64,000 nt of DNA from sequence record MZ170040.1, one strand, 5' to 3'. The position numbers were made by a program, and so were the translations under genes. The DNA is from Escherichia phage vB_EcoM_FJ1. This document shows, one piece after another, positions 1,795 through 63,030 of this stretch. The notes under the pieces were generated by a model. It was not told where the DNA came from. It saw nothing but the letters and a program-made list of their open reading frames with translations, and made no database searches. How positions within the stretch are numbered: the first letter of the stretch is position 1; each line of letters opens with the position of its first letter.

Positions 1795-1987
1795 TGCTTA
1801 TAATTTCAACATCAGCCCAATGACCATAGCAAGGAAGACGAAATTCAACTGGCCAGTTAGGGTCCTTTTCTAATATAATAGACTCAACTCGTGGTTCTTC
1901 ACGTTCATCAGTATATGGATTTTTATCTGTTACTTTATATGTGACCTTAATGTACTGAATTCCAAAAATCTTATTAATTATATTCAT
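1781..1987 (-). CDS. hypothetical protein
   Basis: 68-aa ORF in coupled minus-strand series. Confidence 0.5.
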   Translation of the reverse strand: MNIINKIFGIQYIKVTYKVTDKNPYTDEREEPRVESIILEKDPNWPVEFRLPCYGHWADVEIISIENV

Positions 1988-2181
1988 ACTAATTCCTTTA
2001 ATCCGTAGATAGGAGATAATTCATCACCCATACGAAGGTCTTCATTTCCATCTACCCAGGAAACAATATAAGCCTCTTTTATTTGAACACCGCTCCATTT
2101 AAATGGAGGTAGAACCTTAGAAATTAATCCAGGTATACCAACTCCCTTTAATTCAACAGTTTGACCTAAAAAGAATTTCAT
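1984..2181 (-). CDS. hypothetical protein
   Basis: 65-aa ORF, 4-nt overlaps on both sides. Confidence 0.5.
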   Translation of the reverse strand: MKFFLGQTVELKGVGIPGLISKVLPPFKWSGVQIKEAYIVSWVDGNEDLRMGDELSPIYGLKELV

Positions 2182-2468
2182 TAGAACCTCATCTGAAAAC
2201 CGTGCGATTTAACATTACCGCCGCCAATATCAGAGATATTAATTTCGCGCGCAATTGAAGGGTCAATGTCAATTTCACGATTGAGTTTAGTGATAGCTAA
2301 AGTATCGCGCCCATTTACAGTACGAAACTCTAAAGGACAAACCACATCAACGTAGTTTTTAATCGATTCACTGGTAGGCTGCAAATGAGCAGGAAGGTCT
2401 TTAGGCGCCTTTGAGAAAACAACTTCACAGAAATTTTTGCGGGTATCAAAATAAGTAGTCATAAACAT
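2181..2468 (-). CDS. hypothetical protein
   Basis: 95-aa ORF; SD-like GAGG upstream of ATG. Confidence 0.5.
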   Translation of the reverse strand: MFMTTYFDTRKNFCEVVFSKAPKDLPAHLQPTSESIKNYVDVVCPLEFRTVNGRDTLAITKLNREIDIDPSIAREINISDIGGGNVKSHGFQMRF

Positions 2469-2507: not shown

Positions 2508-2885
2508 TTAAATATCAAATTCGTTAAGAACTACATCAAAGATTGCTTCCAAGTGCTCAGGTTTAGCTTTGTTACTCAGAATATGACGAATCCAAGTTTT
2601 AACTAAGAGTTTACGATTAGCACCATTCCAGCAAGGATGAGTCCCTAAATCACGTTGACGGAAATCATCATCCAGAGCGATTTTAAAGTTGGAACCTTCC
2701 ATCGTGATTGAAACCGTGATACCGTTTTCAAATCGCATATAAACGTAGTTAGGAGTCATATACTGTTCAATTTCGCATACTGATCCATTTTGATGTTTCC
2801 AAAGGCAGATGGTATCAATAGAACCTGCAATACCATTAGAAACATATTTACGTTCAAAGTTAATGTAGTTCATTTTATTCTCCAA
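2508..2885 (-). CDS. hypothetical protein
   Basis: 125-aa ORF preceded by early-promoter-like motif. Confidence 0.55.
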   Translation of the reverse strand: MENKMNYINFERKYVSNGIAGSIDTICLWKHQNGSVCEIEQYMTPNYVYMRFENGITVSITMEGSNFKIALDDDFRQRDLGTHPCWNGANRKLLVKTWIRHILSNKAKPEHLEAIFDVVLNEFDI

Positions 2886-2904
2886 GATGTTTAATTGCGG
2901 TACA

Positions 2905-2940
2905 GGTATATAATATCATGTCCTGTACCAAAGTAAACAA
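2905..2940 (-). promoter_or_regulatory. T4 early-type promoter (-35 GTTTAC, 17-nt spacer, -10 TATTAT)
   Basis: minus strand TTGTTTAC-17nt-TATTAT read directly; upstream of ORF 2508..2885. Confidence 0.5.
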
Positions 2941-3273
2941 TTATTTTACTACTTTCCAATGCTGCATGTCAAGTTTACCAACTTTTTTCATCTTCTCAAT
3001 TAAGCGTTCGGCACGTTGGCGAGCTGTAACATAATACCATTCACCTAATTCATTTTGTTCAATTTTTCCAACGATTACTGTATTCAATTCATAAATCCAA
3101 CCAGTAAAGAAATTATGAACTTGAATTGTAAAGGTGAAATCTGTTCCCATACCTTCTGTTGTTTCTACTTCAATAATATCACCTTCAACTGCCATTAAGA
3201 ACCACATAGTTTCATCATATTTACCATTGAAGCATTTAGTTTTAACTGCAGCGTTCAGATTAATCGTTTTCAT
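2941..3273 (-). CDS. hypothetical protein
   Basis: 110-aa ORF; AAGGAG SD before ATG. Confidence 0.55.
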   Translation of the reverse strand: MKTINLNAAVKTKCFNGKYDETMWFLMAVEGDIIEVETTEGMGTDFTFTIQVHNFFTGWIYELNTVIVGKIEQNELGEWYYVTARQRAERLIEKMKKVGKLDMQHWKVVK

Positions 3274-17264: not shown

Positions 17265-18091
<827 letters not shown>

Positions 18092-33993: not shown

Positions 33994-34024
33994 TTTTGAA
34001 TAAATATCCTTAAAAGGAGGGTCT

Positions 34025-34681
34025 ATGGCAGCACCTAGAATATCATTTTCGCCCTCTGATATTCTATTTGGTGTTCTAGATCGCTTGTTCAAAGATAACG
34101 CTACCGGGAAAGTTCTTGCTTCCCGGGTAGCTGTCGTAATTCTTTTATTTATGATGGCGATTGTTTGGTATAGGGGAGATAGTTTCTTTGAGTACTATAA
34201 GCAATCAAAGTATGAAACATACAGTGAAATTATTGAAAAGGAAAGAAATGCACGCTTTGAATCTGTCGCCCTGGAACAACTCCAGATAGTTCATATATCA
34301 TCTGAGGCAGACTTTAGTGCGGTGTATTCTTTCCGCCCTAAAAACTTAAACTATTTTGTTGATATTATAGCATATGAAGGAAAATTACCTTCAACAATAA
34401 GTGAAAAATCACTTGGAGGATATCCTGTTGATAAAACTATGGATGAATATGCAGTTCATTTAAATGGACGTCATTATTATTCCAACTCAAAATTTGCTTT
34501 TTTACCAACTAAAAAGCCTACTCCCGAAATAAACTACATGTACAGTTGTCCATATTTTAATTTGGATAATATCTATGCTGGAACGATAACCATGTACTGG
34601 TATAGAAATGATCATATAAGTAATGACCGCCTTGAATCAATATGTGCTCAGGCGGCCAGAATATTAGGAAGGGCTAAATAA
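34025..34681 (+). CDS. t: holin T
   Basis: 218 aa, single N-terminal TM (VAVVILLFMMAIVWY) plus large periplasmic domain. Confidence 0.9.
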   Translation: MAAPRISFSPSDILFGVLDRLFKDNATGKVLASRVAVVILLFMMAIVWYRGDSFFEYYKQSKYETYSEIIEKERNARFESVALEQLQIVHISSEADFSAVYSFRPKNLNYFVDIIAYEGKLPSTISEKSLGGYPVDKTMDEYAVHLNGRHYYSNSKFAFLPTKKPTPEINYMYSCPYFNLDNIYAGTITMYWYRNDHISNDRLESICAQAARILGRAK

Positions 34682-58043: not shown

Positions 58044-58051
58044 TATTTATA
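58044..58051 (-). promoter_or_regulatory. T4 late promoter TATAAATA upstream of soc
   Basis: minus strand TATAAATA 30 nt upstream of soc ATG, overlapping the 3' end of the segF-like ORF. Confidence 0.65.
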
Positions 58052-58736
58052 CATCTTCTTTTCTGAATAAGTAAATTAAATTCTTAAGAGCTGAACTTGT
58101 TACATCATATTTTCCTTTAAGCGCCTTTACAACCGGGCCTGTTGCTGGTTTACCTAAAGAAACCCATAACTCATGTATTTCGCTTTTAAGCGGTTCATGC
58201 CAATGCGGCGCTTTTCTTTGCGCCCTTGAAGTTCCTTCTGAAATCTTTTTATTTCCGCCATTCGAATAAAACTTTTTCATTACTTCAGATTGCCGAGCTT
58301 TTCGTTCTGCTCTATTTTGGGCTATACGTTGTGAATTCTTCATCCGAGTTTTTGTTTCAGGATTGTTTAATCTAAGTTTATGTTCTAATCGTTGTTGCTC
58401 AGTCCATTTTCTTCCTTCTCCACCCTGACCACCAGGAGAAATATTAATGCAAGTATCTGGGTGTTTACGTTTTAATGCAGATATTAGCTCGCGTTCAACT
58501 TCATATGATTTTTCTCTAGAACCATGGCATTTTGACCAACGTATTTTATAATTAAAACCATACTTACGATATATGTTCCATAGTATTTTGCCTGACCCCG
58601 GATATTTATCATCATATGGATTTACAATAAATGATTCATGTTTCCCAGCGTACCAAAAGACGCCTTTCGGCGTCCTAACTTTTACGATATATGTTCTATA
58701 AAATTTTTGTTTAATACCCATTATCTTGACGTTCAA
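58047..58736 (-). CDS. segF: freestanding GIY-YIG-like homing endonuclease (segF-like position between 56 and soc)
   Basis: 229 aa; N-terminal YIVKVRTPKGVFWYAGKH GIY-YIG-like element, basic C-terminal DNA-binding region. Confidence 0.55.
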   Translation of the reverse strand: MNVKIMGIKQKFYRTYIVKVRTPKGVFWYAGKHESFIVNPYDDKYPGSGKILWNIYRKYGFNYKIRWSKCHGSREKSYEVERELISALKRKHPDTCINISPGGQGGEGRKWTEQQRLEHKLRLNNPETKTRMKNSQRIAQNRAERKARQSEVMKKFYSNGGNKKISEGTSRAQRKAPHWHEPLKSEIHELWVSLGKPATGPVVKALKGKYDVTSSALKNLIYLFRKEDV

Positions 58737-59286: not shown

Positions 59287-60626
<1,340 letters not shown>

Positions 60627-60645
60627 TATATCATCCTCAACAATT

Positions 60646-60683: not shown

Positions 60684-60716
60684 ATTTATGATAAATATTA
60701 ATTTAAAGGAGGACAT

Positions 60717-60917
60717 ATGGTACAAAAATTAATGGCACTTGTTAATGCCATAAAAGGTAATAAGAAACGTATAGCTTTTACTATTTCTGCTATGATAGGA
60801 ATTTTACTTTGGAATTTTGTTTTATCGCCAGTTGCTATTGCTCATGGTGTTAATATTCCAGTAATTACTCTTGATACATTCGTAGATTTAGCATTTGCTT
60901 TAGTTGGGTTAATTTAA
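60717..60917 (+). CDS. small membrane protein (66 aa) on the opposite strand
   Basis: strong SD AAGGAGG 6 nt before ATG; two hydrophobic segments (IAFTISAMIGILLWNFVLSPVAIA, FVDLAFALVGLI). Confidence 0.5.
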   Translation: MVQKLMALVNAIKGNKKRIAFTISAMIGILLWNFVLSPVAIAHGVNIPVITLDTFVDLAFALVGLI

Positions 60918-62110: not shown

Positions 62111-62737
62111 TTAACCTCTATTCATAAAAGCATTAAAAATTTGGTCATCAATAGAAACATTTACTTTAGACTGTTCTTCAAACGGTAATTCATATCCACA
62201 TATTACAATTTTGTGATCAATATCAAAATACACAGAAGCAATATGATTAATGATGTTTTCAGTAAAGTCTAAATCAACATCAATATCTTTTTGACCACAG
62301 CCCAAAGGATAAATAATGCGAGTAATTCGATTATCTTTAACAAATATTCCACCGACATACTCTGTACTGCGTTTAAAGTCTACACGCCGACGAAATGAAA
62401 AATATTCAGACTCTTTATGAGCTCGGCTCATAGGACACAACGAATAACTAGAATAAGAAATGTCAAATCCTACGCCTTCAATATGAACTAAATTGTCATG
62501 ATTAAACCAATTATAATCATATGCCAAGTCCATTAGATTGTCATATGTGAAAGGCACCGGATTAACATCATTGGTCACAAGCATATAATTAGCAACTGCT
62601 ATAATTTCATTATTTTTAACGAATACAAACCGTGATTGATGCGAATGGCCTGGACCTGCGTTTTCACGATTAATGATATAACACTGGGCACCTTTATATT
62701 TGTATGTATCTTTGCACTTGTGCATTTGATAGAGCAT
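62111..62737 (-). CDS. hypothetical protein
   Basis: 208-aa ORF. Confidence 0.55.
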   Translation of the reverse strand: MLYQMHKCKDTYKYKGAQCYIINRENAGPGHSHQSRFVFVKNNEIIAVANYMLVTNDVNPVPFTYDNLMDLAYDYNWFNHDNLVHIEGVGFDISYSSYSLCPMSRAHKESEYFSFRRRVDFKRSTEYVGGIFVKDNRITRIIYPLGCGQKDIDVDLDFTENIINHIASVYFDIDHKIVICGYELPFEEQSKVNVSIDDQIFNAFMNRG

Positions 62738-63030
62738 TATTCACCTACCACTTCAGCGATGATATTTTTATTATTAAAGTTTTTATCGCAATACAGAACA
62801 TAATTATACTGCATTACACCACCAGACTTAAGCTGTTTTTGCACTTCAGCTTTCATTTCAGGACGATCGCGCTCAACGATATTCATAATATCTGCTTCAA
62901 TTTGGGTTTCAACTTCAGTCTGATCAGCAGTCATAGACCATTCGCACAAATCTTTATCATAACCTGCCATAGCAGGCTGAGCAGCACAAGAAGCTAAAGC
63001 AAAAATTGTAGCAAAGATAAATTTTTTCAT
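62737..63030 (-). CDS. sp: Spackle periplasmic protein (superinfection exclusion / lysozyme inhibitor)
   Basis: 97 aa; signal peptide MKKFIFATIFALASCAAQPAMA. Confidence 0.8.
   Translation of the reverse strand: MKKFIFATIFALASCAAQPAMAGYDKDLCEWSMTADQTEVETQIEADIMNIVERDRPEMKAEVQKQLKSGGVMQYNYVLYCDKNFNNKNIIAEVVGE

What the first reader, a model, noticed from the sequence alone, without database searches (positions are those of the whole stretch)
60691..60917. Lone opposite-strand membrane-peptide gene with a strong RBS inside a 29-kb minus-strand block
Between gene 61 and the nuclease-like ORF there is a + strand ORF (66 aa, two predicted transmembrane segments) preceded by a near-perfect SD (AAGGAGG) 6 nt before ATG. 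Every other gene from 34.7 kb to 64 kb is on the - strand. Its 3' end overlaps the gene 61 stop convergently. A near-match to the late promoter (GATAAATA) lies about 30 nt upstream. It could be a late-expressed membrane factor (immunity or superinfection-exclusion-like) acquired together with the adjacent nuclease-like gene.
Basis: seen in the sequence. Interest (0 to 1): 0.55.

Follow-up and report, generated by a model that had tools for sequence, protein, structure and literature searches.

The report
Conserved late T4-type small membrane protein
This is a real, conserved 66-codon gene of T4-type phages, unannotated in the T4 reference genome, that most likely makes a small inner-membrane protein late in infection; its function is unknown and it did not arrive with the neighbouring nuclease gene.

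Summary
ORF 60717..60917 (+, 66 aa) has AAGGAGG 4 nt before its ATG, with GATAAATA starting 27 nt upstream. It overlaps the gene 61 stop by 4 nt and is the only + strand gene between holin t and gene 41.

It is not a chance ORF. It belongs to phrog_2024 (function unknown) and is intact in 686 of 692 phage records, including T4 (17738..17938, unannotated in NC_000866.4). dN/dS is 0.13-0.40. Divergent subtypes sit at the same convergent position beside gene 61 in about ten Tevenvirinae genera.

NATAAATA lies upstream in 11 of the 12 lineages where the gene leads its own transcription unit, although ATAAATA is about 3-fold depleted in the window. That makes a gp55-dependent late gene the best reading.

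Only one transmembrane helix is robust (residues ~19-41, invariant Trp-Asn), with an N-in/C-out charge bias. The second "TM" is a short acidic amphipathic helix.

The co-acquisition idea fails: T6, SA20RB, ST0 and VR7 lack dam and the nuclease ORF but keep this gene. No holin or Imm homology was found. Function is still inferred: a late envelope role through TM-helix association. The gene is already catalogued, so interest is modest.

The parts
60690..60697 (+). Late-promoter-like motif GATAAATA (T4 late consensus TATAAATA, positions -13 to -6). The predicted transcription start is near 60703 (inferred).
   Evidence: Seen directly. NATAAATA sits at the equivalent place in 11 of 12 divergent lineages, and is a perfect TATAAATA in Marfa and Q7622. 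The -13 position is reported as variable in T4-like phages (PMC1524935). Holin t in this window uses AATAAATA where T4 has TATAAATA.
60706..60712 (+). Shine-Dalgarno sequence AAGGAGG, 4 nt before the ATG.
   Evidence: It is one of only two AAGGAGG in the window; the other precedes holin t.
60717..60917 (+). Coding sequence of a 66-aa protein, a phrog_2024 member.
   Evidence: phrog_2024 match E=8.5e-31. Intact in 686 of 692 phage records. dN/dS 0.13-0.40, with substitutions ordered pos3 > pos1 > pos2.
60720..60770 (+). N-terminal basic amphipathic helix (residues 2-18; five Lys/Arg, no acidic residues), predicted to be cytoplasmic.
   Evidence: AF2 helix 2-13; charge count and helical moment.
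60771..60839 (+). Transmembrane helix (residues ~19-41) containing invariant W32-N33 and P38.
   Evidence: KD19 1.98. Hessa-scale sum 0.41 kcal/mol. AF2 helix 16-42. Invariant columns W32, N33, P38, G44, P48 and G64 across three subtypes.
60870..60902 (+). C-terminal acidic amphipathic helix (residues 52-62; D53, D57). Predicted to be periplasmic or interfacial, not a membrane span on its own.
   Evidence: AF2 helix 52-62. Hessa-scale sum 5-11 kcal/mol in all subtypes; C-flank charge 0 positive, 2 negative.
60914..60917 (.). 4-nt convergent overlap of the ORF stop with the gene 61 (primase) stop.
   Evidence: The same 4-nt overlap occurs in IME537, Lutter, ST0, VR25, Marfa and contig L028.
60722..60751 (-). 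Intrinsic-terminator-like hairpin on the - strand (8-bp stem, 4-nt loop, T-run). It lies inside codons ~2-12 of the ORF and is a candidate terminator for gene 61 transcripts.
   Evidence: Consensus scan. Fold z-score -2.34. Annotated as a terminator at the equivalent site in SA20RB.

Best explanation
This is a bona fide accessory gene that is conserved across a group of Tevenvirinae genera. It is the orthologue of RB32ORF030w/VR7ORF033w, belongs to phrog_2024, and is present but unannotated in T4 at 17738..17938.

Proposed mechanism:
- Late in infection, gp55-RNA polymerase starts at the NATAAATA element about 14 nt upstream of the ATG.
- The short leader carries the joint-strongest Shine-Dalgarno sequence in the window, so the mRNA is translated efficiently.
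- The product inserts into the inner membrane as a single-pass protein: a basic amphipathic N-terminus in the cytoplasm, one TM helix, a G-x3-P turn, and a short acidic amphipathic helix on the periplasmic face.
- The invariant Trp-Asn inside the TM helix suggests it works by helix-helix association, with itself or with a phage or host membrane partner.
- The most plausible setting is a late envelope process: lysis timing or lysis inhibition, or late exclusion.

Shown computationally: the gene is real, under purifying selection, fixed in position and orientation, and carries conserved promoter-like and SD signals and one TM helix with an invariant motif. Inferred: late transcription, topology, TM-mediated partner binding and the envelope role.

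The gene is independent of the neighbouring PD-(D/E)XK nuclease-like ORF.
For: Coding:
- Substitutions fall pos3 > pos1 > pos2, and dN/dS is 0.13-0.40 within subtypes.
- 686 of 692 records carry it near full length.
- Three subtypes only 18-30% identical to the window protein all hit phrog_2024 at E of 1e-25 to 1e-31.

Synteny:
- The gene is always on the + strand, convergent on gene 61 (or on a gene inserted after it), between 56/dam and 61.
- This holds in Tequatro-, Mosig-, Gapriver- (tandem A+B copies), Dhaka-, Marfa-, Mosuguk-, Kanagawa-, Gelderland- and Jiaodavirus.

Late expression:
- NATAAATA lies 12-33 nt before the ATG (motif end to ATG) in 11 of 12 lineages whose flanks are otherwise unalignable. 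It lies 12-22 nt before the ATG in 10 of them; in the P0120 contig the only copy lies 33 nt before the ATG.
- The heptamer is about 3-fold depleted in the window.
- The orientation matches the late genes.
- The leader architecture matches holin t and soc.
- The second tandem copy in VR25 has no promoter motif of its own, consistent with one late operon.

Membrane topology.

Independence from ORF186.
Against: - No transcript, ribosome-footprint or peptide evidence could be accessed. A T4 dRNA-seq TSS table exists but is not held as text.
- The promoter motif has G rather than T at -13.
- No homology or structural match points to any function.
- T6 (AP018814) has ATT in place of the ATG, and one phage has a 3-aa deletion in the TM region, so the gene may be dispensable in the laboratory.
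- The envelope or lysis role is inference only.
- Topology rests on simple hydrophobicity scales and a pLDDT-74 model, not on a dedicated predictor.
Confidence: 0.7

Rival explanations
1. It is a small holin, pinholin or antiholin-type lysis protein (class II-like helical hairpin) that forms or regulates membrane lesions together with holin T.
For: - It is small, hydrophobic and probably late.
- Its leader is nearly identical in architecture to that of holin t: NATAAATA, 7-8 nt, AAGGAGG, 4 nt, ATG.
- It has a polar Asn in the TM helix.
- One UniRef entry, for the OE5505 orthologue, is labelled 'Holin'.
- Tequatrovirus copies have Met1 and Met6, which resembles a dual-start motif.
Against: - The second hydrophobic segment is not predicted to span the membrane (5-11 kcal/mol; an 11-residue helix).
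- There is no charged C-terminal tail.
- There is no hit to any holin family in Pfam at E up to 1-10.
- The Met6 feature is absent from the other subtypes.
- These phages already encode T, RI, RIII and spanins (established T4 knowledge).
- The 'Holin' label is an unsupported automatic name.
Confidence: 0.12
2. One reading: an immunity or superinfection-exclusion membrane factor brought in as a cassette with the adjacent nuclease-like gene.
For: - It is a membrane protein lying close to spackle (sp, 62737..63030).
- Its coarse host-genus range resembles that of sp: Escherichia, Shigella, Klebsiella, Yersinia and Salmonella phages.
- ORF186 is indeed a PD-(D/E)XK nuclease-like protein.
Against: - Co-acquisition is refuted. 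The gene is present without ORF186 and without dam in T6, SA20RB, ST0, VR7/VR25 and JS98, and ORF186 is in only about 145 of 503 related records.
- There is no similarity to Imm.
- Known T4 exclusion genes imm and sp act early, whereas only a late-type promoter is conserved here.
- The similarity in range to sp is not discriminating, because both are simply restricted to core Tevenvirinae.
Confidence: 0.12
3. The main function is at the RNA or DNA level. The late promoter drives antisense transcription into gene 61 to help shut off primase late, and/or the region is conserved as the gene 61 terminator and divergent promoter region. In this view the ORF is incidental.
For: - No significant + strand terminator follows the ORF, so a late transcript would run antisense into gene 61.
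- A - strand terminator-like hairpin lies inside the 5' codons.
- The ORF stop always abuts a convergent early gene.
Against: - The codon-position pattern and dN/dS well below 1 show selection on the protein.
- The amino-acid motif W-N-x4-P-x-A-x3-G-x3-P is invariant where nucleotides are saturated.
- Every lineage has a strong SD.
- The tandem paralogue in Gaprivervirus argues for a protein product.
- The hairpin covers only about 30 nt and is specific to Tequatrovirus.
- An antisense effect could still be a secondary role.
Confidence: 0.08
4. It is a chance ORF in an AT-rich intergenic spacer.
For: - It is short.
- It is unannotated in the T4 and JS98 reference records.
- It has no known domain.
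Against: See: family HMM match, near-universal intactness, purifying selection, and conserved signals across genera.
Confidence: 0.02

Closest known systems
phrog_2024 / RB32ORF030w / VR7ORF033w (hypothetical protein family of T4-like phages)
   Same: It gives a full-length HMM match (E=8.5e-31). It is 92-100% identical to annotated hypothetical proteins in Tequatrovirus genomes and sits at the same position and orientation beside gene 61.
   Different: Nothing differs; it is a member. The family has no assigned function, and the gene is missing from the T4 (NC_000866.4) and JS98 reference annotations.
T4 holin T and small class II holins / pinholins (e.g. phage 21 S68)
   Same: It is a late, strongly translated small membrane protein. 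Its promoter-SD-ATG leader is almost superimposable on that of t in this phage, T4 and JS98. It has polar residues in the TM helix.
   Different: There is no sequence or profile similarity. Only one credible TM helix is present. It lacks both a charged C-terminal tail and a large periplasmic domain like that of T. Hole formation was not tested.
T4 Imm and Sp (superinfection exclusion proteins)
   Same: It is a small envelope-located accessory protein of T-even phages. sp lies 1.8 kb away in the same block and has a similar coarse host-genus range.
   Different: There is no homology to Imm or Sp. It is on the opposite strand with a late-type rather than an early promoter. Topology also differs: Imm has two TM helices and Sp is a secreted periplasmic protein (general knowledge of T4).
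T4 lysis-inhibition accessory proteins RI, RIII, RI.-1, RI.1
   Same: These are small T-even-specific proteins acting at or near the inner membrane to tune holin T (PMC2962797, listed).
   Different: There is no sequence relationship and the locus is different. Any link to lysis inhibition is hypothesis only.

Membership tests
phrog_2024 (T4-like phage protein family, function unknown) | Significant full-length match to the family HMM | tested here: met
   E=8.5e-31, residues 2-66 against profile positions 1-65 of 65. The divergent B-type copies and the Mosigvirus A-type copy also match at E of 1e-25 to 1e-28.
phrog_2024 (T4-like phage protein family, function unknown) | Conserved genomic position: + strand, convergent with the gene 61 block, downstream of 56/dam | tested here: met
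T4 late gene class (gp55/gp33/gp45-dependent) | TATAAATA at -13 to -6 upstream of a short leader | tested here: inconclusive
   The match is 7 of 8 (GATAAATA) at 60690-60697. NATAAATA is conserved in 11 of 12 lineages, and two of them are perfect. Variability at -13 is documented in T4-like phages (PMC1524935) and is seen at t in this very phage. Activity with G at -13 has not been shown.
T4 late gene class (gp55/gp33/gp45-dependent) | Clockwise (+) orientation shared with the late genes | tested here: met
   It has the same strand as genes 37/38/t in the window and is opposite to the early block.
T4 late gene class (gp55/gp33/gp45-dependent) | Transcript appears only after DNA replication starts and depends on gp55 | not testable with these tools
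   A T4 dRNA-seq dataset exists (bioRxiv 10.1101/2024.04.04.588121), but the TSS table is not held as text.
Class II holin / pinholin | Two transmembrane domains | tested here: not met
   TM1 sums to 0.4 kcal/mol. The C-terminal segment sums to 5-11 kcal/mol in all subtypes and forms only an 11-residue helix in AF2. Caveat: simple scales were used, not DeepTMHMM.
Class II holin / pinholin | Hydrophilic, highly charged C-terminal tail | tested here: not met
   The C-terminus is ...AFALVGLI, with no basic residues after residue 18.
Class II holin / pinholin | Homology to a described holin family | tested here: not met
   No Pfam family at E up to 1 (window protein) or up to 10 (three homologues). 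No NCBIfam hit. Foldseek against BFVD returns only its own family.
Class II holin / pinholin | Lethal, timed membrane permeabilisation that releases or activates endolysin | not testable with these tools
   This requires expression and lysis assays.
Imm-type superinfection immunity protein (Pfam Imm_superinfect) | Sequence homology to T4 Imm | tested here: not met
   No Pfam hit at permissive thresholds.
Imm-type superinfection immunity protein (Pfam Imm_superinfect) | Early expression so that exclusion is established within minutes | tested here: inconclusive
   Only a late-type motif is conserved upstream. A sigma-70-like match at 60607-60634 lies inside ORF186 and is absent from phages that lack ORF186.
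   The ORF is in 692 records, whereas about 145 of 503 related records have ORF186. T4, T6, SA20RB, ST0, VR7 and JS98 have the ORF without ORF186.

The most novel reading that the evidence does not exclude
The protein is an overlooked component of the T-even late envelope programme. For example, it could be a TM-helix partner that tunes holin T triggering or lysis inhibition, or a late-acting exclusion or anti-defence factor. On this reading it has escaped genetics for decades because the gene is not annotated in the T4 reference genome. The tandem A+B paralogues in Gaprivervirus and the fast-evolving termini around an invariant W-N...P...G...P core would then reflect an arms race at the membrane.
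Probability: 0.2. Interest if true: 0.7.

Novelty: already known. Interest (0 to 1): 0.3.

Why it matters
T4 is a reference organism, yet this gene is missing from its RefSeq annotation (NC_000866.4). Screens and omics analyses built on that gene list would not score it. The gene is conserved, under purifying selection, and carries the same strong late expression signals as the holin gene. A cheap knockout and topology experiment in T4 could therefore assign a function to a family present in hundreds of therapeutic-candidate T4-like phages. As it stands, this is an already catalogued hypothetical protein and not a new kind of system.

Tried and rejected
Searches that gave no functional lead:
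- Pfam, NCBIfam and PADLOC scans of the 66-aa protein and its homologues found no family.
- A PDB sequence-profile search gave only chance hits with E of 0.16 or more.
- Foldseek of the AF2 model against BFVD returned only its own family; the remaining hits had E above 0.1.
- An exhaustive HMM search of 1.84 billion representatives and two word-indexed searches of 5.8 billion proteins found nothing outside T4-like contigs.

Literature:
- Searches for RB32ORF030w, OL964735, T4 Ribo-seq, unannotated ORFs and small membrane proteins found no paper on this gene.
- One search failed because a search term was too short.
- PMC150520 (the T4 genome review) is not held.
- PMC12283622 turned out to concern an unrelated Drexlerviridae phage.
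- The T4 dRNA-seq preprint has a TSS table, but it is not in the held supplement.

Structure and distribution checks:
- The + strand 3' region does not fold better than shuffled sequence (z = -0.11), so I do not claim a terminator there.
- The range comparison with spackle is too coarse to be evidence of a functional link.
- The resemblance to the t leader extends to T4 and JS98 but not to Marfa. I use it as evidence for late expression only, not for a functional link.

Full report
**What the window is.** The region is from a Tequatrovirus (T4-like phage). The 1.1 kb around the finding is 99% identical to Escherichia phage IME537 and matches 503 phage records. The local gene order on the - strand is soc, a seg-like GIY-YIG ORF, 56 (dCTPase), dam, a 186-aa ORF, then the finding on the + strand. 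Gene 61 (primase), 61.1, 61.2, sp and dmd follow on the - strand.

**Checking the observation.**
- The ORF runs 60717..60917 (+), 66 aa, ATG to TAA.
- AAGGAGG is at 60706-60712, and the spacer to the ATG is 4 nt, not 6. T4 itself has 6.
- AAGGAGG occurs only twice in the 64-kb window on either strand. The other copy is the ribosome-binding site of holin gene t at 34014.
- GATAAATA is at 60690-60697.
- The ORF's TAA overlaps the gene 61 stop by 4 nt (60914-60917).
- In the annotated closest relative, every gene from asiA to gene 41 is on the - strand except this one.
- All of these points are confirmed. Only the 'two TM segments' claim needs correction (see the paragraph on the protein).

**Is it a real gene?** Yes.
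- It matches phrog_2024, a family of unknown function, over its full length (E=8.5e-31).
- tblastn finds it in 692 phage records, near full length in 686.
- These include T4, where it lies at 17738..17938 (+) inside the unannotated 309-bp gap between dam and 61 in NC_000866.4.
- It has been annotated elsewhere as RB32ORF030w and VR7ORF033w.
- Between orthologues, differences fall mainly at codon position 3, then 1, and least at 2. Nei-Gojobori dN/dS is 0.13-0.40, with synonymous sites saturated between genera.
- No - strand gene overlaps it beyond 4 nt, so this signal belongs to the ORF itself.

**Distribution and anatomy of the family.** A second, very divergent subtype (B, about 20% identical) surfaced as an unannotated ORF just downstream of the A-type copy in Gaprivervirus VR7.
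- The B subtype is intact and annotated in VR25, 8 nt after the A copy.
- B alone occupies the same site in Dhakavirus JS98 (unannotated), Marfavirus, Mosugukvirus PM2, Kanagawavirus Q7622 and Gelderlandvirus SEA1.
- A third subtype (C) is in Jiaodavirus and a metagenomic relative.
- The B-type copies and the Mosigvirus A-type copy hit phrog_2024.
- The invariant residues are W32, N33, P38, G44, P48 and G64, with A40 nearly invariant: W-N-x4-P-x-A-x3-G-x3-P.
- In every case the gene is the lone + strand gene, convergent on the 3' end of gene 61 or of a gene inserted after it.
- No convergent ORF of this kind is present beside gene 61 in Roskildevirus, Krischvirus, Gualtarvirus, Acinetobacter Acj9, Klebsiella Earwig or Aeromonas UP87.
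- Profile searches of 1.84 and 5.8 billion proteins find members only on T4-like contigs.

**The co-acquisition idea fails.** T6, SA20RB, ST0, VR7/VR25 and JS98 have the gene directly between 56 and 61, with neither dam nor the 186-aa ORF. T4 has dam only. Only about 145 of 503 related records cover the 186-aa ORF. In the alignment of junctions, similarity between the window and T4 resumes exactly at GATAAATA. The promoter-SD-ORF unit is therefore the conserved module, and the variable DNA lies upstream of it.

**Expression signals.**
- In 11 of 12 lineages whose upstream sequences are otherwise unalignable, NATAAATA sits 12-33 nt before the ATG (motif end to ATG). It is a perfect TATAAATA in Marfa and Q7622.
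- SEA1 has only TAAATA.
- The downstream tandem copy in VR25 has none, as expected for a two-gene operon.
- ATAAATA is about 3-fold under-represented in the window: 8 and 7 copies against 21-25 expected. It occurs only twice on the + strand of the 29-kb early block. The repeated placement is therefore not chance.
- Nolan et al. 2006 report that the T at -13 is poorly conserved in T4-like phages (PMC1524935).
- In this very phage, holin t has AATAAATA where T4 has TATAAATA.
- The leaders of t and of this ORF share one layout in the window, T4 and JS98: NATAAATA, 7-9 nt, an AGGAG-core SD (AAGGAGG for both genes in the window and T4), 4-6 nt, ATG.
- I take this as good, though indirect, evidence for gp55-dependent late transcription starting near 60703. 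I do not take it as evidence of a functional tie to t, because Marfa's t leader differs.
- No credible + strand terminator follows the ORF, so a late transcript probably runs antisense into gene 61.
- A - strand terminator-like hairpin with a T-run (60751..60722) lies within codons 2-12 of the ORF. It may end gene 61 transcripts.

**The protein.**
- AF2 (pLDDT 74) gives helices at residues 2-13, 16-42 and 52-62.
- Residues ~19-41 are clearly membrane-spanning (KD19 1.98; Hessa-scale sum 0.4 kcal/mol).
- The C-terminal stretch sums to 5-11 kcal/mol in all subtypes and is amphipathic with an acidic face (D53, D57).
- The N-flank carries five positive and no negative charges. The C-flank carries none positive and two negative.
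- By the positive-inside rule this predicts N-in/C-out: one span, a G-x3-P turn, and an interfacial or periplasmic helix.
- The Hessa values were entered from memory, and no dedicated topology predictor was available.
- The invariant Trp-Asn in the middle of the span is the kind of polar TM motif that commonly mediates helix-helix association (general knowledge). That is the basis for the proposed mode of action.

**Comparison with known systems.** There is no match to Pfam, NCBIfam, PADLOC, PDB sequences or BFVD folds beyond its own family.
- Holin membership fails on TM number, C-terminal tail and homology.
- Imm membership fails on homology and, as far as the promoter evidence goes, on timing.
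- The 'Holin' and 'head morphogenesis' labels on single orthologues are automatic names without support.
- Spackle has a similar coarse host-genus range, but that only reflects restriction to core Tevenvirinae.

**Verdict.** This is a genuine, conserved, probably late-expressed single-pass inner-membrane protein of T-even phages. It is already catalogued as a hypothetical protein family but missing from the T4 reference annotation. Its function is unknown. The most likely setting is a late envelope process acting through TM-helix association (inference). Interest is modest. It would rise if the gene proved to be a missing lysis, lysis-inhibition or exclusion component.

Noticed in passing
window 60066..60626 (-): The 186-aa ORF next to dam is a PD-(D/E)XK nuclease-like protein. 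It has an invariant D72-x12-E85-x-K87 motif, a PADLOC REase_II hit at E=9e-5 and a sub-threshold Pfam DpnII hit. The AF2 model has pLDDT 80, and Foldseek matches VC1899, AF1548, McrC, Bax1 and Can2/Card1 nuclease domains. Its stop overlaps the dam start by 1 nt, which suggests a restriction-enzyme-like plus Dam methyltransferase operon in a T4-like phage. It is present in only about 145 of 503 related records and absent from T4, and homologues are very few.
   Followed up: partly
window 33999..34027 and 60690..60719 (+): The only two AAGGAGG heptamers in the 64-kb window (both strands) are the ribosome-binding sites of holin t and of the 66-aa ORF. Both have the layout NATAAATA, 7-8 nt, AAGGAGG, 4 nt, ATG. 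T4 and JS98 show the same pairing, but Marfa does not.
   Followed up: partly
window 60722..60751 (-): A terminator-like hairpin (ATGGCATT-AACA-AGTGCCAT followed by TAATTTTTGT) lies on the - strand inside the first codons of the + strand ORF. This stretch would therefore code for protein on one strand and act as a probable gene 61 terminator on the other. It is annotated as a terminator in SA20RB.
   Followed up: partly
L002 (T4 NC_000866.4) 17738..17938; L014 (JS98) 2001..2201: The family member is intact but not annotated in the T4 and JS98 reference records.
   Followed up: yes
L005 (VR7) 2700..2970; L019 (VR25) 1795..2201: Gaprivervirus carries two tandem paralogues (A-type and B-type). 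In VR25 both are intact and 8 nt apart. In VR7 the B copy is unannotated, has a changed C-terminus and reads about 70 nt into gene 61.
   Followed up: partly
L003 (T6 AP018814) 2501: T6 has ATT in place of the ATG start codon of the ORF. The record's annotators started the CDS at the internal Met6. This could be a rare start codon, a lab-strain mutation or a sequencing error.
   Followed up: no
whole window, both strands: ATAAATA, the core of the late promoter, is about 3-fold depleted relative to base composition: 8 and 7 copies against 21-25 expected. This is consistent with selection against spurious late promoters.
   Followed up: partly
window 58047..58736 (-): A 229-aa GIY-YIG seg-like homing endonuclease ORF lies between soc and gene 56. 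Its 5' end overlaps the 3' end of gene 56, at the position of segF in T4.
   Followed up: no
L028 3204..3578 (-): In a metagenomic Jiaodavirus-like contig, an extra 124-aa gene sits between gene 61 and the small + strand gene. The small gene keeps the 4-nt stop overlap, but with this inserted gene instead of gene 61.
   Followed up: no
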